DNA from: an uncultured Gammaproteobacteria bacterium
GTDB lineage: Bacteria > Patescibacteriota > Microgenomatia > UBA12405
Direction: 5' to 3'
DNA length: 64,000 nucleotides
Assembly: GCA_964503465.1 (NCBI GenBank)
Contig: CAZCYZ010000001.1
Location: forward strand, 129,702 to 193,701
The position numbers were made by a program, and so were the translations under genes. The notes beneath the pieces were generated by a model. It saw nothing but the letters and a program-made list of their open reading frames with translations, was not told where the DNA came from and ran no database searches. Shown here in pieces: positions 31,902 to 57,721 of this stretch. The stretch's first letter is position 1, and the number at the start of each line of letters is the position of its first letter.

Positions 31902-32768
31902 ATGAAACGCGATTATTACGAAGTTTTGGGGGTCAACAAATCTGCCTCAACGGCAGACATCAAATCGGCCTATCGCAAAAAAGCCATGGAATGGCATCCT
32001 GATCGCAACAAGTCCACCGATGCTGAAGAAAAATTCAAGGAAATCAACGAAGCTTATGAAATTTTAAGTAATAGTCAAAAGAAGCAGGCCTACGACCAAT
32101 TCGGTCATGCTGCTTTTGACCCATCTTCTGGAGCCTCTGGTGGTCACACCTATACCGACCGCAGTGGCCCTTTCACCTACACCTGGAGTAGTGGTGGTCA
32201 AAACCCATTCGGCGGTAATGCTGACTTTGATTTTGGAGGTTTTAGCAATCCTTTTGATATTTTCGAACAATTCTTTGGTACTGGCGGCTTCCAATATGGT
32301 GGCCGTCAACAAAAACGTCTTGCTACCTACAAAATTCAACTTACTTTTCTTGAAGCTGCCAAGGGTTGCGACAAAGAAGTCGAGATCGACGGTAAACGCA
32401 AAACTATCAAAATACCTGCCGGAGTTGATGATGGCCAACGAATTAAATTTACTGACTTTATCCTTTATGTTGACGTCATTCCTGACAATATTTTCAAACG
32501 TGACGGCAACGATGTTTACATCAACCAAATTATTAGTTTTTCTACTGCAGTCCTTGGGGCCGATATCGAAGTTCCTACCCTCAATGGTTCTCTCAAAGTT
32601 CGAGTCAAACCAGGCACTCAACCCAACACTCTGATTCGCCTTCAGTCAAAAGGTATTCGTGACGTCAATGGTTATGGATACGGTGATTTCTATATCAGAT
32701 TGATCGTTGAAGTCCCCACCCGTCTCTCTTCTCGTCAGAAAGAATTGCTAAAAGAGCTCGAGTTGTAA
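31902..32768 (+). CDS. dnaJ: J-domain co-chaperone DnaJ/CbpA-like (class II: no zinc-finger domain)
   Basis: J domain DYYEVLGV...YRKKAMEWHPDRN, a Gly/Phe-rich linker and C-terminal substrate-binding domains. No CxxCxGxG repeats occur anywhere in the 288 aa. Confidence 0.88.
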   Translation: MKRDYYEVLGVNKSASTADIKSAYRKKAMEWHPDRNKSTDAEEKFKEINEAYEILSNSQKKQAYDQFGHAAFDPSSGASGGHTYTDRSGPFTYTWSSGGQNPFGGNADFDFGGFSNPFDIFEQFFGTGGFQYGGRQQKRLATYKIQLTFLEAAKGCDKEVEIDGKRKTIKIPAGVDDGQRIKFTDFILYVDVIPDNIFKRDGNDVYINQIISFSTAVLGADIEVPTLNGSLKVRVKPGTQPNTLIRLQSKGIRDVNGYGYGDFYIRLIVEVPTRLSSRQKELLKELEL

Positions 32769-40003: not shown

Positions 40004-40588
40004 ATGAAACAAGACCCATTTCTTATTCCCGTTCTACTGGCCATTATTTTTGTTTCTATTTTGGGCAATATTTATCTTTATTTTCATAAAAATATCAATT
40101 TCTCTCCCACCCCATTTGACACCAGCATTCTTATCACTCCTACTCTTTACCCCTCCTTGGTGCCAACTATCCCAGCCACCACTTCGACCTCGGTTAATGG
40201 ACTTGTGACATACACCAATCGGGAGGATGGCCTAAGTTTTCAATATCCCGAAGATTGGTACTTTGATGGTGGTGTCCTCTCAAACTATGACCCATCCAAT
40301 AGAGGTCCAGTAGAATCCCACCAGGGTGACATTAAGTGTGACCTGTTTGCCGCCAAGTTTGTGGATGAATCGACGTTGGTTGGGACAAAACAACTCAAAA
40401 TCAATTCAAAAAGTACAATTTACCAATCTAAACTACAATCCGAATTATATGAAGATATTTTTTACACTGTTTTTAGCATTTATTCCCCAAATAAATCAAA
40501 GTTAAATCATTTCATCTGCTACTCACTCGCCCAAAACCAGATTCAGGCCTTCTATAAGGTACTTAGCTCTTTTGAATTTATCAACTAA
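40004..40588 (+). CDS. membrane-anchored exported protein, family shared with 40588-41214 and 57711-59633
   Basis: It has an N-terminal TM helix, IPVLLAIIFVSILGNIYLYF. The domain starts with YTNREDGLSFQYPEDW and ends with FYKVLSSFEFIN. Confidence 0.6.
   Translation: MKQDPFLIPVLLAIIFVSILGNIYLYFHKNINFSPTPFDTSILITPTLYPSLVPTIPATTSTSVNGLVTYTNREDGLSFQYPEDWYFDGGVLSNYDPSNRGPVESHQGDIKCDLFAAKFVDESTLVGTKQLKINSKSTIYQSKLQSELYEDIFYTVFSIYSPNKSKLNHFICYSLAQNQIQAFYKVLSSFEFIN
40040..40080 (+). repeat. 41-nt perfect direct repeat (second copy 40633-40673) encoding the shared TM helix
   Basis: gccattatttttgtttctattttgggcaatatttatcttta is identical at both positions, although the rest of the two genes has diverged. 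Confidence 0.9.
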
Positions 40589-41214
40589 TGTCTACTAATT
40601 CATTAAGTCCAAAACTAGTACCCATTCTCCTCGCCATTATTTTTGTTTCTATTTTGGGCAATATTTATCTTTACTTTACTCGGAACCAGCCATTTACTCC
40701 TTTAGTTCCCGATACCAGTATTTTTATCACCCCCACTCCTTATCCCCCAACTGCCACCCCAATAACCCGGCAACAATATCAACACTCCCGACTCAAGTAC
40801 CAAATTAGTTACCCTTCATCCTGGCAATTAGAAGTCGACGGGCAATACCCGGATATAGTTAACCTTACTCTCGGTGATCTGGCTAGAATTACTATCGACC
40901 CTACCAACCAACTACAAATTACCCCCACGATTAAACAGTGGGTCGAAAAAACTAACCATCAAACCTCCACCGATCCCAATCGCAAGTCATTTTCGTCGCT
41001 TTTAACCATTCTTCCCGATGACGGTCTCATTACCAATCAAGTGGGTAAGTCACTTGTCATTTTGGACGAAGGTTTTTTTGAACAAAACGGCAAGCAATAT
41101 CTTTTTACTCGCGGTAATACAATTTATAATCTTACCGCTGTTTATTACGGTGAAAACTCTTCAGCCTCCATCGACATCAATGGCATCGTTTCTAGTCTCA
41201 AGTTTATTGATTAG
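40588..41214 (+). CDS. membrane-anchored exported protein, tandem paralog of 40004-40588
   Basis: It has the same TM helix, VPILLAIIFVSILGNIYLYF. The domain starts with LKYQISYPSSW and ends with IVSSLKFID. Its start overlaps the upstream stop. Confidence 0.6.
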   Translation: MSTNSLSPKLVPILLAIIFVSILGNIYLYFTRNQPFTPLVPDTSIFITPTPYPPTATPITRQQYQHSRLKYQISYPSSWQLEVDGQYPDIVNLTLGDLARITIDPTNQLQITPTIKQWVEKTNHQTSTDPNRKSFSSLLTILPDDGLITNQVGKSLVILDEGFFEQNGKQYLFTRGNTIYNLTAVYYGENSSASIDINGIVSSLKFID

Positions 41215-41338: not shown

Positions 41339-43075
41339 ATGAATCAAATCAATCAATTTCAGGGTCTAAAAAACCCCGTTCGTCAGTTTAACTCCCAAAA
41401 CGATTCAGTTCGTATTAGTTCACTGGGCGGTTTTGGTGACGTTACTCAAAACATGTTCGTTTATGAGTATGCTCCCAATGGTGACTTTACCAAAAGCGAA
41501 ATTATTATTGTTGACTGTGGTGTCGGTTTTCCCGAAGAAGACGCTTTTGGTGTTGATCTTCAAATTCCCGATACTACTTATCTTACCGACAAGAAAGATC
41601 GAATCAAAGCTATTTTTATTACTCACGGTCACGAGGATCATATTGGTGCTGTCAGATTTATTTTGCCAATTTTGGGTAAGGATATCCCCATTTATGCCCC
41701 TCGTCTGGCCGCCGCCTTTATTCAGGCTCGTTTGGAAGAATTCAACATTCGTCCCAAGCTTGAAGTAATTCAAGATGGTATTTCTATCATCAAAAGTCCT
41801 TTCACTGTTGAGCCAGTTCGAGTAACCCACTCCGTCCCTGATACTTATCATTATGCTATTCACACCCCAGTTGGTATTTTTTACCACGGGAGTGATTTCA
41901 AGTTTGATCTTTTCCCTCTCGACGGTGTTCAGGCTGATCTCCGTCGTATTGCCGCCGTTGGTGGTCAGAATGTAGTTTGTCTTCTTTCTGATTGTCTCGG
42001 GGCCGATCATGAAGGCTATTCGCCCTCCGAAGGTGCTATTGCCGAAAACTTTGAACGAGAAATAAAAACTGCCAAAGGGCGAGTCTTTGTCACTGCCATC
42101 AGTAGTAACATTGTCCGTTGGAGTCAGGCTATTGATTGTGCCAAAAAAGTTGGTCGTAAAATAGTTATTGTTGGTATGTCGGTTGACAAGGCCATTAGAA
42201 TTGCCAAAGAGCTGGGTTATGTTCATTTGGTCGAATCCGATATCATTCCCGTCGAGAAAGTTCGTAATTTTTCTGACAACAAACTAATTTTTCTGACCGC
42301 CGGTTTTGCTGGACAACCAGATTCGGCTCTTTCCAAAATGACTATGGGCAAACATCGGATCAAAATAAAATCTGGTGATAAGGTTATTTTCTCTTCACCC
42401 GATTACATTCCCGGTACCACTACCGCCATTTTTGACATGATTGACAACCTTTCTCGGCTTGGAGCTGAGGTTGCCTACGGTGAAAAAGAAGAACTTCATG
42501 TTAGTGGTCATGGTTATCAAAAGGAACATGCTCTTTTAATCCAGCTACTTCATCCCAAATATCTTCTTCCCATTGGTGGCAACTACCGTCATGTCAAAAG
42601 TTATCAGACTATGGCTAAAAGTTTAGGTTTTAACGACAATCAGTTTATTGCTCCCGATCACGACTCTTCGGTCACTTTTCACGGGGATCGCTCCTTTGAC
42701 ACCAGCTTTAGAATCCCTCTTCGTAAAGTTTTGATTGACGGACTTGGGGTGGGGGATGTTGGCACTACCGTTCTTCGTGACCGTAAACTTTTAGCTGAAG
42801 ATGGTATGTTTAGTGTTGTTGTCTTAGTCGACAAAGAACATGGCAAACTTTACCAGGAGCCCGTTATTCTTAGCCGAGGTTTTGTTTTTGTCAAAGAAAA
42901 TACTGACCTTTTAAATTACTTAAAGCAGGAGGTTACCAATAAGTTTCAACAGCTTGCCAGCAAACCGGCTAATCTTGATTACATTCGCACCGAGCTCCAA
43001 TCGTATCTTGAGGGAATTATCATGGAAAAAACCGGCCGTCAACCTATGGTGCTACCTCTAGTTATCGAGATTTAA
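41339..43075 (+). CDS. rnj: ribonuclease J
   Basis: 578 aa with the metallo-beta-lactamase motif ITHGHEDHIGA, a beta-CASP region, HVSGHG and a C-terminal domain. Confidence 0.93.
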   Translation: MNQINQFQGLKNPVRQFNSQNDSVRISSLGGFGDVTQNMFVYEYAPNGDFTKSEIIIVDCGVGFPEEDAFGVDLQIPDTTYLTDKKDRIKAIFITHGHEDHIGAVRFILPILGKDIPIYAPRLAAAFIQARLEEFNIRPKLEVIQDGISIIKSPFTVEPVRVTHSVPDTYHYAIHTPVGIFYHGSDFKFDLFPLDGVQADLRRIAAVGGQNVVCLLSDCLGADHEGYSPSEGAIAENFEREIKTAKGRVFVTAISSNIVRWSQAIDCAKKVGRKIVIVGMSVDKAIRIAKELGYVHLVESDIIPVEKVRNFSDNKLIFLTAGFAGQPDSALSKMTMGKHRIKIKSGDKVIFSSPDYIPGTTTAIFDMIDNLSRLGAEVAYGEKEELHVSGHGYQKEHALLIQLLHPKYLLPIGGNYRHVKSYQTMAKSLGFNDNQFIAPDHDSSVTFHGDRSFDTSFRIPLRKVLIDGLGVGDVGTTVLRDRKLLAEDGMFSVVVLVDKEHGKLYQEPVILSRGFVFVKENTDLLNYLKQEVTNKFQQLASKPANLDYIRTELQSYLEGIIMEKTGRQPMVLPLVIEI

Positions 43076-43476
43076 AAATATTTCTCCAATCGTCTCAAAG
43101 TATCATCAGTAGGGGTATTAGATACTTGTCTGACCGCTAAATCCACTGACGTCCATCCGTCGCCACCGATTCTTTTAACCTGAATTCGACCTCCCTCTCT
43201 GTCGGCTACTCGACGCAGTTCTTGTTGTAGAGCGTGAAGTTCAGCGTAAGCCCTAGGCTCATCTAGTCCCCCGCCATGTAACCGTTGTCTTTTCCCAGAT
43301 ATCGTCACTATGGCTGTTCCATCTTTTCCTGCAGTTTTTAGAATATCCTCCGCTTCATCATATCGCACTCTAATCTTTGCCGGCTTTCTCGGGACTACTC
43401 TGTCCCTGGTTGGCCCCCAGTTAATCTCTTGAGCCTCTGCTTCGGTGGCTCTTCTAATCATCGTTACTGGACTCAT
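43072..43476 (-). CDS. orphan 134-aa Arg-rich protein, translationally coupled to the upstream cyclase gene
   Basis: Minus-strand ORF whose ATG overlaps the cyclase stop (ATGA). Its stop shares a palindromic TTAA with the rnj stop at 43072-43075. I recognised no family. Confidence 0.5.
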   Translation of the reverse strand: MSPVTMIRRATEAEAQEINWGPTRDRVVPRKPAKIRVRYDEAEDILKTAGKDGTAIVTISGKRQRLHGGGLDEPRAYAELHALQQELRRVADREGGRIQVKRIGGDGWTSVDLAVRQVSNTPTDDTLRRLEKYF

Positions 43477-44267
43477 TTTTTGAAATTAACCGGTAATCTT
43501 CTAATTTGAACCGTTGGTGTCGGGGCAGGGAATACCCTTGATCTAATTAAATTCTTTGTTTTTATTGGCAATTTACTCCAAGCAAATACCACCACTACTA
43601 CTATCAGGGCTAAATACAACAATTTCACAATTCCTGGAAACGATTCTTCCTCCGTGGTCCTGTCGCTGGTGTTGTGTTTGTCTTTATCCAAATTAGCATG
43701 TTGGTATGTCTTCTCGCTTCGAGCACTTTTGTGTTTATCCATTGCTCCCTCTTCTTGCAACACCTTATATACCTTTACCTGATCAGCAATTCCCTTAAGA
43801 TAACGATAACCAATCTCTGCCGTTGGCACCTCGTTTTTATTCATTGCCAGGTATACCGCTTCTGTGAAATACACCTCCCCCGGTTCGGCAATCGACTCGA
43901 TTCTTGAAGCAATATTGACCGGTTCCCCAAAAACATCATCGTCCTTAAGGTTTACTTCCCCAAAGTTCACTGCGATCCTTAGTTCAAACTTCTCATCTTC
44001 GTTCGCGTCATGGTTGTGCTTAGCAATTGTTTCCTGAACCTTGACTCCGCACAGTACTGCATTAGTCGGGGATTCGAAAGTTACCAAATAGGCGTCACCA
44101 ATAGTTTTAACTATTGTTCCATCGTACTGTCCAAATATTGGCCGCACCACTTCATCTTGAATCTCCAGTAAATGCTGTATTTCTTCTCGTGATTCAAGCG
44201 AAGTTCTGGTCGTAAACCCTTTCATGTCGGTAAACATTATCGCCAGCCCTTTGGTCTTTGCCCCCAT
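43473..44267 (-). CDS. class III adenylate/guanylate cyclase catalytic domain with a C-terminal single TM anchor
   Basis: Motifs: MFTDMKGFT (metal-binding Asp), VKTIGDAYLV (Lys and second Asp), RIAVNFGEV and FGEPVNIASRIES. After a linker comes the TM helix IVKLLYLALIVVVVVFAW and a short basic tail. Confidence 0.8.
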   Translation of the reverse strand: MGAKTKGLAIMFTDMKGFTTRTSLESREEIQHLLEIQDEVVRPIFGQYDGTIVKTIGDAYLVTFESPTNAVLCGVKVQETIAKHNHDANEDEKFELRIAVNFGEVNLKDDDVFGEPVNIASRIESIAEPGEVYFTEAVYLAMNKNEVPTAEIGYRYLKGIADQVKVYKVLQEEGAMDKHKSARSEKTYQHANLDKDKHNTSDRTTEEESFPGIVKLLYLALIVVVVVFAWSKLPIKTKNLIRSRVFPAPTPTVQIRRLPVNFKK

Positions 44268-44308
44268 GGCTTATTTTAACTCAAATATCTTTTGGTGTAG
44301 ACTTTTAT

Positions 44309-45031
44309 ATGGACAAAAAACATCCTCACCATCTTGGTCTTTTTATTCTTCTTGCCTCCATTATTTGGTCGTTTGCCTTTTATCGGGCTAAAGTCGTTAC
44401 TTCTCGTCAAACCATTTCTGTCACTGGTGTTGCTTATCAAGATGTTACTTCTGACTTAGCCGACTGGTCATTTACTCTAGAGCGTCGGGACTCAGGTCGG
44501 AAAAATAGTTACGACAATTTGTTGTCCGACGAGAAAAATTTTCTTGATCATCTTAAGAAACTCAACATTACCGATTCCGAAATCCGCAAAGGCACTTACC
44601 ACACTTTTCCTGTTTACCGTAAGGAAAACTATACCGATACCGACGAAATCATTGCTTACACTTCCACCATCAATTATTCCATTGTTGGTTCTGACATTAG
44701 TAAAATTGCCAACATTGCCGACAATATCAATGCCTACTTAATCGCCAATAATCTTACTCTCTCTCAAAACTATCAATCCTACACCTACAATCAACTCGAA
44801 GGGCTCAAGATCTCTCTCCTCGAAGCCGCTATCAAAAATGCCGAAAGTCGGGCCAAAGCCATTGGTAAAACTACTCATTCCCGAATTGGGAAGATCGTTA
44901 ATGCTTCCCAGGGGATTTTTCAAGTCAACCCCAGAAACGACTACAGTGTCTCCGGTGAAGGCAACTTTGATACTTCCTCCATTGGTAAAACTATCCGCGC
45001 CACTGTTTCGGTTGATTTCGAGCTCAAGTGA
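44309..45031 (+). CDS. SIMPL (DUF541) domain protein with N-terminal TM anchor
   Basis: TM helix LGLFILLASIIWSFAFY. The pattern ISVTGVAY...SFTLE...LEAAIKNAESRAKAIGK...IRATVSVDFELK resembles the SIMPL/DUF541 family. The ATG is at 44309; the track start at 44258 would overlap the cyclase gene. Confidence 0.6.
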   Translation: MDKKHPHHLGLFILLASIIWSFAFYRAKVVTSRQTISVTGVAYQDVTSDLADWSFTLERRDSGRKNSYDNLLSDEKNFLDHLKKLNITDSEIRKGTYHTFPVYRKENYTDTDEIIAYTSTINYSIVGSDISKIANIADNINAYLIANNLTLSQNYQSYTYNQLEGLKISLLEAAIKNAESRAKAIGKTTHSRIGKIVNASQGIFQVNPRNDYSVSGEGNFDTSSIGKTIRATVSVDFELK

Positions 45032-45040: not shown

Positions 45041-45046
45041 TCCCTC

Positions 45047-45183
45047 AAACCTATGAAACCGTTTCCCGCGGTGGAGGTGACGGCGACGAGCCGCTCCAGA
45101 AACAAACTGTAAAATATTCATCAAGAAGTAAATAGGGTGGTACCACGACGCTTGCGCTCGTCCCTAACAGGACGAGCTTTTTT
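45047..45183 (+). promoter_or_regulatory. T-box riboswitch leader controlling proS
   Basis: The conserved T-box sequence AATAGGGTGGTACCACGACG lies at 45131-45150. The antiterminator can be drawn by hand: helix A1 AGGG (45134-37) with CCCT (45162-65), a 7-nt bulge TGGTACC (45138-44), and helix A2 ACGA/CG (45145-50) with CG/TCGT (45055-61 offset +100, i.e. 45155-45161). A competing terminator lies at 45156-45183. Confidence 0.8.
45156..45183 (+). terminator. T-box terminator hairpin
   Basis: GCTCGTCC-ctaaca-GGACGAGC followed by TTTTTT. Its 5' arm overlaps the 3' strand of the antiterminator. Confidence 0.8.
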
Positions 45184-55231: not shown

Positions 55232-56137
55232 ATGAAAAAGGCCCTCTTGTTTTTTCTGGTTGTTATCTTCGCTGCTGTCGGTTTTGTTGTCATTTCGCTT
55301 CAACCAGTTTCTTCATCAATTCAACCCCAACAGTTCGTTATTAATCAAGGTGATAGTCTCAACCTCATTGCCTCCAGACTTTATTCAAGCAAGCTTGTCC
55401 GTAGTCGTTATGTCTTTATTATTTGGTCGTACCTAAAAGGTCTTAATCGTCGTCTTCAGGCCGGATCTTTTGAGCTTCTTCCGTCTCTGTCAACTCCGGA
55501 TATTGTCCTCAAGCTTTCCACGGGTGGCAGTCATGATTATTGGTTAACTATTATTGGTGGTAGTCGGCGTGAGGAAATTTCCCCACCACTAACTGGTGCC
55601 AGTGAGGGCTACTTATTTCCCGACAGTTATCTAGTCCCACGCGACTTTACTCCATCGGAAATTCTTGAGGTTATCAATCAAAACTTCCAAAAAAAATTTG
55701 CTCAGGCTAAACTTTCCCAAACTACTTCTCTTACCGATTCTGAAACCTTAGTTCTTGCCTCTCTTCTCGAACGTGAGGCCCGACTTCTTCCCACCAAACA
55801 AATGATTGCTGGCATCCTTCTTAATCGCCTCCAGATCAACATGGCCCTCCAGGTTGATGCCTCAGTTCAGTATGCTCGTGATAATCTCAAAAAACCCACC
55901 AAATACTGGCAACCGGTAACCAAAGCCGACCTTAAGATTAGTTCTCCCTTTAATACTTATCTTTATCCTGGACTTCCTCCTGCTCCCATTTGCAACCCTG
56001 GTTACGATTCTATCTTCGCCGCCTTTCATCCCACTCCCTCAAAATATCTTTTCTATATCACCGACGATTCGGGTCAAATCCACTACGCCCAGACTCTTGA
56101 CGAACACAATGCCAACATTGCTAAATACCTACGTTAA
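55232..56137 (+). CDS. mltG: endolytic murein transglycosylase MltG (YceG family)
   Basis: N-terminal TM helix and a LysM-like FVINQGDSLNLIASRL. The YceG core has ASLLEREA and SPFNTYLYPGLPPAPICNPG. Confidence 0.88.
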   Translation: MKKALLFFLVVIFAAVGFVVISLQPVSSSIQPQQFVINQGDSLNLIASRLYSSKLVRSRYVFIIWSYLKGLNRRLQAGSFELLPSLSTPDIVLKLSTGGSHDYWLTIIGGSRREEISPPLTGASEGYLFPDSYLVPRDFTPSEILEVINQNFQKKFAQAKLSQTTSLTDSETLVLASLLEREARLLPTKQMIAGILLNRLQINMALQVDASVQYARDNLKKPTKYWQPVTKADLKISSPFNTYLYPGLPPAPICNPGYDSIFAAFHPTPSKYLFYITDDSGQIHYAQTLDEHNANIAKYLR

Positions 56138-57104
56138 TTAACTCATTTAGTATTTTCCATCGTCTTTTTTTCTCTTTTGGAGGAATGTCATCTTTGTAAA
56201 TTTTTGCCGAAACTGTTCCCCGTCGTGGTGAATATTTATTAATATAAGCAATTTCAAAACCAACTTTTTGGCACAAATCTACCGTATTTTGAAAAGCCGG
56301 TTCATCCTCACCTGGAAAACCAACAATAATATCAGTCGACAATCTTACTCCCTCAATCGCGGTTCTTATTTTGTTGACCAACTTCAAATAATCCTCTCTG
56401 GTGTAACCCCGATTCATCTTTTTAAGTATTTCATTATCCCCGGATTGAATCGGCAGATGAATCAGCCTGTCAATATTCTGGTGTTTGGCTATTACCTGTA
56501 TCAGTTCGTTATCAAAATCCCATGGATTGCTACTAATAAACGATACTTTCCTTAACTTTCTACCGGCCACCTTATCCAGTAAATCAAAAAACTTTCCTTT
56601 TTGCCAAGAATTGACGCTTTGTCCAATCAGCATTACTTCCTCAAAACCTTCTTTTATGGCTTTGTCTACTTCCTCAAGAATTTCTTTTTCACTTCGATAC
56701 ATTTCTCGCCCTCTGGAATAGGGGACTATACAATAGCTACAATAATGGTCACAACCACTACTAATGGGTATCAATGCCGCTCGCTTCTTGTCTCTTATTG
56801 GCCCATCAACCTCAAATTTCTTTATTGGCCACCACTCCACTCCTTCGATTTTTTTCTTTCGCACGGGCACTAAACACCCGGTAATAATTATTCTTTTACT
56901 TTTTATATTGTTAATCAGGCCGTAAACTCTATTTTCTGCCGATTCTCTAATCACACAGGTATTTATCACTACCAGGTCAGCTGTTTTTAAGTCGTCCACC
57001 TCTTCGTACCCCTTTGTCCAAAAGTATGCCCGTATTTTTTCTGAATCAGCTTGGTTTTGAATACAACCAAAAGTTTTAATGTGAAATCTTATAACCTTAT
57101 TCAT
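56121..57104 (-). CDS. MiaB/RimO-like radical-SAM methylthiotransferase lacking a TRAM domain
   Basis: The UPF0004 domain has FHIKTFGCIQNQADSE. The radical-SAM cluster is SSGCDHYCSYCIVP. The protein ends without a TRAM domain. An ATG at 57104 is preferred over the track start at 57170, which would overlap the divergent gene. The 3' end overlaps mltG by 17 nt. Confidence 0.85.
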   Translation of the reverse strand: MNKVIRFHIKTFGCIQNQADSEKIRAYFWTKGYEEVDDLKTADLVVINTCVIRESAENRVYGLINNIKSKRIIITGCLVPVRKKKIEGVEWWPIKKFEVDGPIRDKKRAALIPISSGCDHYCSYCIVPYSRGREMYRSEKEILEEVDKAIKEGFEEVMLIGQSVNSWQKGKFFDLLDKVAGRKLRKVSFISSNPWDFDNELIQVIAKHQNIDRLIHLPIQSGDNEILKKMNRGYTREDYLKLVNKIRTAIEGVRLSTDIIVGFPGEDEPAFQNTVDLCQKVGFEIAYINKYSPRRGTVSAKIYKDDIPPKEKKRRWKILNELINVGI

Positions 57105-57125
57105 TCTCGTATTATACCCATTAAT

Positions 57126-57154
57126 TTGACACTGATTTTCAAAAGTGCCATAGT
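57126..57154 (+). promoter_or_regulatory. candidate promoter placing the TSS at or near the 57161 ATG
   Basis: TTGACA (57126-57131), a 17-nt spacer, CATAGT (57149-57154), then 6 nt to the ATG. Confidence 0.4.
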
Positions 57155-57160
57155 TATTCC

Positions 57161-57721
57161 ATGGATTCAAATCAACAGTACCAAGATATTCTTGATCAAT
57201 ATCAAAAGACTTTTAGTAATCCGCCTTCACCCTCAGTACCAGCCCCCCCTCAACCACTCGAATCAGTACCTCCATCTCCAGTACCTCCTCCTTCACCTGT
57301 TTTACTTCCACCTGTTTCACCCCCACCCATATCACCGCCACCACAACCGGTTTTACCTCCACCCCCACCTGTTCAAGCCCTGACTAAGCCAAGTAAGGAC
57401 TCAACTATTTTCTTTAAAATTTTGTTTATCCTTTCCTTTCTTCTATTTTTAGGAGTTGCTGCTGCCGTTGTTTATAATCTCCTAAGCCAACAATTGGGGT
57501 CAAACCCTCTTCCTATCAAAAAAATTACTACCACCCCATCGGAAACGCCCACTCAAGCAGTTTCTTTTTGCGAACTCAACGATCAACGTTACCAAGTCGG
57601 TCAATCATTTCCCGCCGCCGATGGCTGCAATACCTGTACTTGTCTTGAGGACTTAACTATTAGTTGCACCGAACTTTCTTGTGACATTACTCCTGCAGTT
57701 TCTCCGGTAAATGGATCATAA
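57161..57721 (+). CDS. bitopic membrane protein: Pro-rich N-terminus, TM helix, small Cys-rich (VWC-like) ectodomain
   Basis: The N-terminus is PPSPSVPAPPQPLESVPPSPVPPPSPVLLPPVSPPPISPPPQPVLPPPPPV. The TM helix is IFFKILFILSFLLFLGVAAAVVY. The C-terminus is CELNDQRYQVGQSFPAADGCNTCTCLEDLTISCTELSC. Confidence 0.6.
   Translation: MDSNQQYQDILDQYQKTFSNPPSPSVPAPPQPLESVPPSPVPPPSPVLLPPVSPPPISPPPQPVLPPPPPVQALTKPSKDSTIFFKILFILSFLLFLGVAAAVVYNLLSQQLGSNPLPIKKITTTPSETPTQAVSFCELNDQRYQVGQSFPAADGCNTCTCLEDLTISCTELSCDITPAVSPVNGS

What the first reader, a model, noticed from the sequence alone, without database searches (positions are those of the whole stretch)
43072..44267. Minus-strand two-gene unit: membrane-anchored class III nucleotide cyclase overlapping a 134-aa Arg-rich orphan
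The unit lies on the opposite strand in an otherwise + strand housekeeping stretch. The first gene has an intact class III cyclase catalytic core: FTD and IGD metal-binding Asps, the Lys of VKTIGDAY at the base-specifying position, and FGEPVNIASRIES. A single C-terminal TM helix follows.

Its stop overlaps the ATG of a 134-aa protein (ATGA) for which I can name no family. That gene's stop shares the palindrome TTAA with the rnj stop, so the unit is wedged in with no spacer.

A cyclase plus a translationally coupled unknown partner is the generic architecture of nucleotide second-messenger signalling or defence modules. Here the partner lacks an obvious cNMP-binding, TIR, SAVED or TM effector signature. 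If the pair is a functional unit, the sensor/effector would be new. Which nucleotide is produced cannot be read from the sequence alone.
Basis: partly seen in the sequence, partly recalled or inferred. Interest (0 to 1): 0.55.

Follow-up and report, generated by a model that had tools for sequence, protein, structure and literature searches.

The report
Adenylate cyclase beside unrelated small orphan gene
Both genes are real, but they are not a conserved pair: one is an ordinary, widespread cAMP-making enzyme of ultra-small bacteria, and the other is a very rare small basic protein that sits next to it only in this genome.

Summary
The sequence-level observation is correct. A 264-aa class III cyclase (43473..44267, minus strand) with a C-terminal TM helix overlaps a 134-aa Arg-rich ORF (43072..43476, minus) by ATGA. 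That ORF's stop shares TTAA with the rnj stop.

The cyclase belongs to a large family (940 hits, mostly Patescibacteria). All six canonical catalytic residues are invariant across 28 homologues. The specificity pair K54/D111 aligns with K101/D157 of the Ma1120 adenylate cyclase, so cAMP is the predicted product.

- The four closest cyclase orthologues (71-79% identity, same proS…rnj synteny) abut or overlap rnj directly, with no gene in between.
- The 134-aa protein has only two homologues among about 15 billion proteins.
- One homologue lies between proS and rnj with no cyclase, again overlapping the rnj stop. The other follows a different 122-aa ORF.

Most likely this is a chance juxtaposition in a variable slot. 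Interest is low.

The parts
43473..44267 (-). Gene for a 264-aa tail-anchored class III adenylate cyclase: cytosolic catalytic domain of about residues 1-170, a charged linker, one TM helix and a short basic tail.
   Evidence: ORF. PF00211 E 4e-21. 940 homologues. Catalytic residues invariant in 28 homologues. Best PDB sequence hits are 3mr7 (9e-25), Ma1120, Rv1900c LipJ and Rv1264.
43758..44267 (-). Cyclase catalytic domain (residues 1-170). Metal Asp D14 and D58; substrate pair K54 and D111; R97; transition-state N118 and R122.
   Evidence: Positions checked. Alignment to Ma1120 and 3mr7. K101/D157 of Ma1120 were shown by mutagenesis to set ATP preference (PMC4215837). Invariance.
43572..43640 (-). 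Single predicted TM helix (residues about 210-232, FPGIVKLLYLALIVVVVVFAWSK).
   Evidence: Kyte-Doolittle 19-residue maximum of 2.6 at residue 210. A hydrophobic block at the same alignment position in the homologues.
43072..43476 (-). ORF134: a small basic (pI 9.8) Arg-rich protein and one of a three-member family (with P0123 and P0124). Predicted topology is β-α-α-β-α-β-β-α.
   Evidence: homologues. (models, pLDDT 70.9 and 79.9). (pN<pS). (GC3 0.363, host-like).
43473..43476 (-). ATGA overlap of the cyclase stop and the ORF134 start.
   Evidence: The same ATGA junction links P0124 to a different upstream ORF in L005. In L004 the homologue follows a 139-bp intergenic region.
43072..43075 (.). 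TTAA: overlapping stop codons of rnj (+) and ORF134 (-).
   Evidence: L004 has the equivalent 4-nt overlap (TTAG) between P0123 and rnj.
41339..43075 (+). rnj (RNase J, 578 aa), the convergent neighbour. It is the conserved anchor of the slot.
   Evidence: Pfam RNase_J_b_CASP 6e-32 and RNase_J_C 1.8e-25. 71-89% identity to rnj in L001, L002, L004, L087 and L088.
44273..44301 (-). Promoter-like site upstream of the cyclase (TCTACA-17-TAAAAT, 9/12). A weak consensus match only.
   Evidence: The number of sites found equals the shuffle expectation, so this is not evidence of function.
44309..45031 (+). Divergent SIMPL/DUF541 gene, another variable occupant of the proS-rnj slot.
   Evidence: PF04402 3.7e-20. 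Present in L001; no match in L002, L087 or L004.

Best explanation
The "unit" is two independently inherited genes that happen to be adjacent in this Patescibacteria (CPR) genome. They lie in a variable slot between proS and the 3' end of rnj.

(1) The cyclase. It is a member of a large, conserved family of tail-anchored class III cyclases found mainly in CPR genomes. Its cytosolic domain should homodimerise to form two active sites: D14/D58 bind two metal ions, K54/D111 read adenine, and R97/N118/R122 handle the phosphates and the transition state. It should convert ATP to cAMP. The sequence features are shown; the activity is inferred.

(2) ORF134. It is a genuine, fast-evolving small basic protein with only three known members. 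Its one repeated neighbour is the rnj stop codon, not the cyclase. In this genome it is probably co-transcribed and translationally coupled with the cyclase through ATGA. This looks like a consequence of genome compaction rather than a conserved partnership.

My best guess for its activity, at about 25% likelihood and inferred only, is nucleic-acid (RNA) binding. The reasons are pI 9.2-9.8, eight invariant Arg/Lys, two invariant Trp, and an Alba/IF3-C-like β-α-β-α-β-β topology.
For: Cyclase identity and chemistry.

Independence of the two genes:
- L001, L002, L087 and L088 have cyclase identities of 79, 74, 76 and 71%, and rnj identities of 82, 82, 89 and 79%. In each the cyclase sits directly against rnj (20-bp gap, or 14-32-bp overlap), with no ORF134 match by tblastn (also for L001 and L002).
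- L004 (ProRS 80-85% and rnj 71% identical to the window) carries P0123 between proS and rnj with no cyclase or SIMPL gene.
- In L005, P0124 follows a 122-aa ORF and an FMN-reductase-like gene.
- Cyclase homologues at about 53% identity have unrelated neighbours.

Rarity of ORF134:
- Exhaustive phmmer over 1.84 billion representatives gives only P0123 and P0124. It also gives two repeat-summed spurious hits.
- The profile search adds nothing.
- Genome, metagenome and viral contig scans and phage tblastn add nothing.

ORF134 is a real gene:
- 35 invariant columns across the three members.
- pN 0.38-0.44 against pS 0.67-0.74.
- GC3 0.363 against 0.358 for rnj.

Fold: two independent models share one topology. 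Structural neighbours are weak.
Against: - ATGA coupling in this genome is compatible with co-expression, so a lineage-specific functional link cannot be excluded.
- The L004 and L005 contigs are only about 2.4 kb, so those genomes might encode a cyclase elsewhere.
- The cyclase-only genomes are incomplete metagenome contigs. A distant ORF134 homologue elsewhere could have been missed, though none appears in the protein databases that include those assemblies.
- The direction of the gain or loss of ORF134 is unresolved.
Confidence: 0.75

Rival explanations
1. One reading: the cyclase and ORF134 form a functional two-gene second-messenger module for signalling or anti-phage defence. ORF134 would be a new kind of sensor, regulator or effector of the cyclic nucleotide.
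For: - ATGA overlap and shared orientation.
- Weak PADLOC PycC matches for the cyclase (1.2e-5).
Against: - The pair occurs in one genome only. 4 of 4 closest cyclase orthologues lack the partner, and the two ORF134 homologues lack the cyclase upstream.
- The cyclase family has 940 members against 3 for ORF134.
- ORF134 matches no effector or cNMP-binding model.
- The PycC score (23 bits) is far below the generic PF00211 score (75.8 bits).
- The neighbourhood is housekeeping, not a defence island.
- The H-NOX match covers only half of that domain. I saw no Tyr-x-Ser-x-Arg heme-contact motif (recalled from memory) on inspecting the three sequences, and I did not map the heme-ligating His position.
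Confidence: 0.07
2. ORF134 is functionally tied to RNase J rather than to the cyclase. It could be an RNA-binding cofactor or regulator. Alternatively, its obligate convergent, stop-overlapping transcription could modulate the 3' end of rnj by antisense.
For: - In both contexts where the downstream neighbour is visible (the window and L004), the family member ends in a 4-nt stop-codon overlap with rnj.
- The proteins are basic, with conserved Arg/Lys/Trp.
Against: - Only two informative contexts exist, and they are probably orthologous, so they count as one evolutionary event.
- In L005 the 20 nt after the stop do not read as an rnj 3' end.
- Cyclase-only relatives also overlap rnj by 14-32 bp, so tail-to-tail overlap is a general compaction feature here.
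- Close relatives have RNase J but no ORF134.
Confidence: 0.15
3. ORF134 is a selfish or accessory small gene, for example one half of a toxin-antitoxin-like bicistron or a relic of a mobile element, inserted into a permissive intergenic slot.
For: - Patchy presence and absence among close relatives.
- In L005 it forms a compact ATGA-overlapping pair with another small basic ORF.
Against: - No flanking repeats.
- No phage or viral relatives.
- No PADLOC or PHROG match at a significant level.
- GC3 is host-like.
- It is solo in L004 and paired with a cyclase here, so there is no consistent partner.
Confidence: 0.08
4. ORF134 is not a functional gene but a chance or decaying ORF.
For: - Extremely narrow distribution.
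- No obvious Shine-Dalgarno sequence upstream (by inspection).
- The public gene caller chose a different start.
Against: - Intact ORFs of 121-134 aa in three divergent genomes, with 35 invariant positions.
- tblastn E about 1e-15.
- pN clearly below pS.
- Confident, consistent fold prediction from only three sequences.
- P(chance ORF) about 7e-4.
Confidence: 0.03

Closest known systems
Mycobacterial-type class III adenylate cyclases with a short dimer arm: Ma1120 (PDB 4wp9), Rv1900c/LipJ (1ybt), Rv1264 (1y10), and the Ruegeria structural-genomics cyclase 3mr7
   Same: - Same catalytic domain: phmmer E 9e-25 to 3e-10; PF00211.
- Same Lys/Asp adenine-specifying pair (K54/D111 = Ma1120 K101/D157).
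- Same two metal-binding Asp and the same catalytic Arg.
- Same short loop between the GEV strand and the DxFG motif.
   Different: - There is no N-terminal regulatory domain (no pH sensor, lipase or α/β-hydrolase domain). Instead the catalytic domain is N-terminal and tail-anchored by one C-terminal TM helix with a variable extracytoplasmic tail.
- It keeps the canonical Asn (N118) where Ma1120 has Ala164.
- The organism is a CPR bacterium, and activity is untested.
Pycsar (PycC cyclase plus PycTM/PycTIR effector) anti-phage systems
   Same: Class III-like cyclase fold followed on the same strand by a small gene. Weak PADLOC PycC matches (best E 1.2e-5).
   Different: - The downstream gene has no cNMP-binding, TM or TIR domain.
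- The pair is not conserved.
- The specificity residues are the purine (ATP) Lys/Asp pair.
- The gene is part of a conserved housekeeping neighbourhood.
H-NOX proximal subdomain, with Bet3/TRAPP, YslB and PoxR sensory-domain entries (which I recall as V4R/Bet3-type small-molecule-binding folds)
   Different: - Below any homology threshold, at 5-14% identity.
- Only half of the H-NOX domain is covered, with no distal helical subdomain.
- I saw no Y-x-S-x-R heme-contact motif (recalled from memory) in the three sequences; the His ligand position was not mapped.
- This is a lead, not a classification.
Alba / SpoVS / IF3-C-like nucleic-acid-binding α/β domains
   Different: - No sequence similarity (Pfam and PDB profile searches are empty).
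- Extra N-terminal basic loop and C-terminal helix.
- The scores are typical of generic two-layer sandwiches.

Membership tests
Class III nucleotidyl cyclase (PF00211) | Significant match to the catalytic-domain profile | tested here: met
   PF00211 E 4.1e-21, 75.8 bits against a cut-off of 21.9, covering 8-180 of 183 profile positions. PDB cyclases at E 9e-25 and weaker.
Class III nucleotidyl cyclase (PF00211) | Two metal-binding Asp residues | tested here: met
   D14 (FTD) and D58 (IGD). D58 is invariant. D14 is nearly invariant; the exceptions are N-terminally truncated entries.
Class III nucleotidyl cyclase (PF00211) | Transition-state Asn and Arg, plus the phosphate-binding Arg | tested here: met
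   N118, R122 and R97 are present and invariant in 28 homologues.
Adenylate (rather than guanylate or pyrimidine) cyclase | Lys/Asp substrate-specifying pair (GCs have Glu plus Cys/Ser/Thr/His/Ala/Gly) | tested here: met
   K54 and D111 align with K and D of Ma1120 (K101/D157). Their role in ATP preference was shown by mutagenesis in PMC4215837. Both are invariant.
Adenylate (rather than guanylate or pyrimidine) cyclase | Measured cAMP synthesis; homodimer formation | not testable with these tools
   Requires an enzyme assay or LC-MS.
Pycsar defence system | Cyclase matches PycC models better than generic cyclase models | tested here: not met
   Best PADLOC PycC hit is 23 bits, E 1.2e-5, against 75.8 bits for PF00211.
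Pycsar defence system | Adjacent effector with a cNMP-binding domain fused to TM or TIR | tested here: not met
   ORF134 has no Pfam or PADLOC match at E<=1 and no hydrophobic segment (maximum KD 0.26).
Pycsar defence system | Cyclase-effector adjacency conserved across homologues | tested here: not met
   0 of 6 other cyclase contexts examined carry an ORF134 homologue.
H-NOX domain | Full domain of about 180 aa with a distal helical subdomain, a proximal His heme ligand and a Y-x-S-x-R motif (features recalled from memory) | tested here: not met
Alba/IF3-C-like nucleic-acid-binding fold | Significant structural or profile similarity | tested here: inconclusive
ORF134 family (window ORF134, P0123, P0124) | Shared motifs IR-A-x3-E-x4-NW-P, RKP, GT-x2-V-x-I-x-G, R-x-Q, GG-x2-W and AVR, with length 121-134 aa | tested here: met
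   phmmer E 1.4e-7 and 1.3e-6 against 1.84 billion proteins. 35 invariant columns. Reciprocal tblastn 1e-14 to 4e-29.

The most novel reading that the evidence does not exclude
In this one lineage, ORF134 has been recruited as a partner of the tail-anchored adenylate cyclase. Its fold weakly resembles the H-NOX proximal subdomain, which regulates cyclases elsewhere. It could act as a regulator that gates the cyclase or as a new type of small cAMP-responsive protein. The ATGA coupling would then be functional rather than incidental.
Probability: 0.06. Interest if true: 0.55.

Novelty: new member of a known kind. Interest (0 to 1): 0.2.

Why it matters
If the module idea had held, it would have defined a new effector class for cyclic-nucleotide signalling. 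It does not hold.

Two modest points remain:
- A well-conserved, uncharacterised family of tail-anchored adenylate cyclases is widespread in ultra-small CPR bacteria. Homologues of 43-64% identity also occur in MAGs labelled Nanoarchaeota and Elusimicrobia. I found no paper in the searched library that discusses cAMP signalling or this cyclase family in CPR bacteria.
- A tiny family of small basic proteins (three members among about 15 billion proteins) is wedged against the rnj stop codon in two related genomes. It illustrates how compact genomes create operon-like overlaps between unrelated genes. This is a caution against reading ATGA overlaps as evidence of functional coupling.

Tried and rejected
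- Pfam, NCBIfam, PADLOC and PHROGs on ORF134 and its homologues gave nothing significant.
- The word-indexed search of 5.8 billion proteins found only the query itself. The profile search with alignment A1 found only the three members.
- Exhaustive phmmer also returned two giant repeat proteins (P0122, 5994 aa; P0125, 1391 aa). I rejected them as repeat-summed artefacts: P0122 is 28 repeats of about 2.7 bits each with bias 76, and the A1 profile scores 0.1 bits on P0125 and does not report P0122.
- Other scans with A1:
  - The genome-contig scan found no relative.
  - The metagenome scan found only a duplicate of L005.
  - The viral-contig scan found nothing.
  - Phage tblastn gave E >= 0.08.
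It returned mostly distant cyclases (best 64% identity), so it was not useful for the close neighbourhood.
- The PDB sequence-profile search with A1 gave nothing below E = 1.
- The 122-aa ORF upstream of P0124 was tested as a possible paralogue. hhalign probability was 0.65%, so this was rejected despite a shared "INW" motif.
- Repeats flanking ORF134, as a mobile-element signature: none found.
- Rfam over 40-47 kb found nothing in the pair.
- Terminator and promoter scans were at the shuffle expectation.
- The end of L005 was checked for an rnj 3' end. It is not recognisable.
- Literature searches for a cyclase or cAMP in CPR/Patescibacteria found nothing relevant.
Full report
**1. What is in the sequence**

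The window carries two minus-strand ORFs at the stated coordinates: 43473..44267 (264 aa) and 43072..43476 (134 aa).
- The cyclase stop and the ORF134 start overlap as ATGA.
- The ORF134 stop and the stop of the plus-strand RNase J gene (41339..43075) overlap as TTAA.
- From about 27 kb to 63 kb, nearly all ORFs of 130 aa or more lie on the plus strand. Besides the pair, the minus-strand exceptions are 32064..32621 (overlapping + strand ORFs), 41420..42226 (inside rnj) and 56121..57170, which I did not examine.
- The flanking genes are housekeeping or conserved: RNase J, a SIMPL/DUF541 protein, ProRS and FtsK.

**2. The cyclase**

The 264-aa protein matches PF00211 at E 4e-21 (75.8 bits). Among solved structures it is closest to 3mr7 (E 9e-25), Ma1120 (1e-16), Rv1900c/LipJ (3e-12) and Rv1264 (3e-10).

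All six canonical class III residues are present: metal-binding D14 and D58, substrate-specifying K54 and D111, R97, and transition-state N118 and R122.
- In an alignment of 28 homologues down to 43% identity, K54, D58, R97, D111, N118 and R122 are invariant.
- D14 is missing only in N-terminally truncated entries.

In the HMMER alignment, K54 and D111 fall on the Lys and Asp of Ma1120, and N118 falls on the Ala that replaces Asn in Ma1120. For Ma1120, mutagenesis showed that K101 and D157 set ATP preference, and that guanylate cyclases carry Glu plus Cys/Ser/Thr/His/Ala/Gly at these sites (PMC4215837). The sequence therefore predicts ATP to cAMP.

The protein has one strongly hydrophobic segment (residues about 210-232, Kyte-Doolittle 2.6), followed by about 30 basic residues. 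The homologues keep a hydrophobic block at the same place, followed by tails of very variable length. The architecture is thus an N-terminal cytosolic catalytic domain, a charged linker, one TM helix and a variable outside tail.

The family is large. There are 940 hits at E<=1e-3, and the named ones are mostly Patescibacteria, Microgenomates, Roizmanbacteria, Falkowbacteria and Buchananbacteria. Some MAGs are labelled Nanoarchaeota and Elusimicrobia.

PADLOC PycC models match only weakly (best 23 bits), as expected for generic class III similarity.

**3. ORF134**

The 134-aa product is Arg-rich (18 of 134 residues) with pI 9.8. It has no significant match in Pfam, NCBIfam, PADLOC or PHROGs.

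Homologue searches:
- The word-indexed search of 5.8 billion proteins returned only the protein itself, called as 129 aa from Met6.
- The exhaustive phmmer scan of 1.84 billion representatives found two small homologues: P0123 (123 aa, E 1.4e-7) and P0124 (121 aa, E 1.3e-6). It also found two giant repeat proteins.
- The giant proteins are artefacts. P0122 scores through 28 repeats of about 2.7 bits each, and a profile of the three small proteins gives 0.1 bits on P0125 and does not report P0122.
- A profile search and scans of genome, metagenome and viral contigs and of phage genomes added no further member.

The three proteins share 35 invariant positions, including R8, N19-W20-x-P22, R30-K31-P32, G53-T54, R97-x-Q99, G104-G105-x2-W108 and A114-V115-R116. 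Their N-termini align to Met1 of the 134-aa reading, which supports the ATGA start.

ORF134 behaves as a real gene under selection:
- Nei-Gojobori counts give pN 0.38-0.44 against pS 0.67-0.74.
- The rough dN/dS is 0.2-0.3 with dS saturated. The C-terminal part of rnj gives about 0.1 between the same genomes.
- GC3 is 0.363, which is host-like (rnj 0.358). The raised GC of the gene comes from second codon positions, that is from its Arg/Ala/Gly-rich composition. It is therefore not a recent foreign insertion.
- No repeats flank it.

**4. Comparative genomics: the decisive test**

The four closest cyclase orthologues all lie in the same proS…rnj neighbourhood.

| Locus | Cyclase protein | Cyclase identity | Junction with rnj |
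|---|---|---|---|
| L001 | P0003 | 79% | 20-bp gap |
| L002 | P0004 | 74% | 32-bp overlap |
| L087 | P0005 | 76% | 14-bp overlap |
| L088 | P0006 | 71% | 32-bp overlap |

- tblastn confirms the rnj, proS and SIMPL identities and finds no ORF134 remnant.
- L087 is the nearest relative by rnj (89% over 513 aa) and still lacks ORF134.

Conversely, P0123 lies on a contig (L004) whose ProRS is 80-85% identical to the window's and whose rnj C-terminus is 71-72% identical.
- The order there is proS(-), a 139-bp AT-rich spacer, P0123(+), then rnj(-) with a 4-nt stop overlap.
- There is no cyclase and no SIMPL gene.

P0124 (L005) follows a 122-aa unknown ORF with the same ATGA junction. Upstream of both is an FMN-reductase-like gene, and the contig ends 20 nt after the stop.

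More distant cyclases (53% identity) sit beside a second cyclase between trp and aro genes (L089), or after dnaG and rpoD (L091).

Three of the four possible states of this slot are therefore seen among close relatives: both genes, cyclase only, and ORF only. The cyclase does not need ORF134, and the ORF134 family does not need the cyclase. The only repeated neighbour of the ORF134 family is the rnj stop codon.

**5. What ORF134 might do**

Two AlphaFold2 models were made from the three-sequence alignment: ORF134 with pLDDT 70.9 and pTM 0.64, and P0123 with pLDDT 79.9 and pTM 0.70. Both give the same topology, β1-α1-(basic loop)-α2-β2-α3-β3-β4-α4.

Structural searches found nothing significant:
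- Foldseek gives nothing at E <= 0.001. Its weak list is headed by Bet3/TRAPP, YslB, a PoxR sensory domain and H-NOX.

The fold is thus a small two-layer α/β sandwich with no assignable superfamily.

Given the basic charge and the conserved Arg, Lys and Trp residues, I rate nucleic-acid binding as the single most likely activity, at about 25%. A small-molecule-binding role of the H-NOX or V4R type is possible but unsupported. I saw no Y-x-S-x-R heme-contact motif (recalled from memory) in the three sequences, and only half of the H-NOX domain is covered.

**6. Verdict**

The descriptive part of the finding is right.

The best explanation is an ordinary, conserved CPR adenylate cyclase that in this genome happens to lie upstream of a rare lineage-specific small gene. 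Both sit in a compact, variable slot between proS and rnj. The ATGA and TTAA overlaps reflect genome compaction: cyclase-only relatives overlap rnj too, and P0124 shows the same ATGA junction with a different upstream gene.

Novelty is that of a new member of a known enzyme family plus an uncharacterised micro-family. Interest is low (0.2).

Noticed in passing
window 45044-45168 (+): Sub-threshold Rfam T-box leader match (32.1 bits against a gathering score of 93, E 2.5e-4). It lies in the 245-bp spacer just upstream of proS. L001 and L002 instead carry a 111-aa tRNA_bind (PF01588) gene immediately upstream of proS.
   Followed up: no
window 40004-40588 and 40588-41214 (+): Two tandem genes (194 and 208 aa). 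Their N-terminal TM segments are 70% identical over 40 residues, while the rest has diverged. Both give weak PsbP_2 matches (E about 0.003-0.004). In L002 the corresponding position upstream of rnj holds a UDG gene and two small ORFs instead.
   Followed up: partly
P0081, P0092; L009, L011, L012: Cyclase homologues with 43-61% identity occur in MAGs labelled Nanoarchaeota (DPANN archaea) and Elusimicrobia. This suggests either cross-domain sharing of the family among ultra-small organisms or binning errors.
   Followed up: no
L089 5001-6718: A relative with 53% identity has two tandem cyclase paralogues. They lie between a trp operon (anthranilate synthase, TrpD, IGPS, PRAI) and aromatic amino-acid genes (DAHP synthase, PDT x2, chorismate mutase/PDH).
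   Followed up: no
L005 1667-2035: A 122-aa basic ORF (pI 8.9) overlaps the start of P0124 by ATGA and carries an "AINW" motif like the family's "EINW/QINW". hhalign does not support homology (probability 0.65%). It is a possible very divergent tandem paralogue or an unrelated partner.
   Followed up: partly
window 43461 versus 43476: The public gene call for ORF134 starts at Met6 (129 aa, 12 nt after the cyclase stop). Homologue N-termini support Met1 with the ATGA overlap.
   Followed up: yes
window 44309-45031 and loci L001, L002, L004, L087: The proS-rnj interval is a small variable slot in this clade. SIMPL is present in the window and L001, and no SIMPL match is found in L002, L087 or L004. 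L002 has an extra 73-aa ORF. The cyclase is absent from L004.
   Followed up: partly
window 41420-42226 (-): A 268-aa antisense ORF lies entirely inside rnj. It is presumably a non-coding shadow ORF.
   Followed up: no
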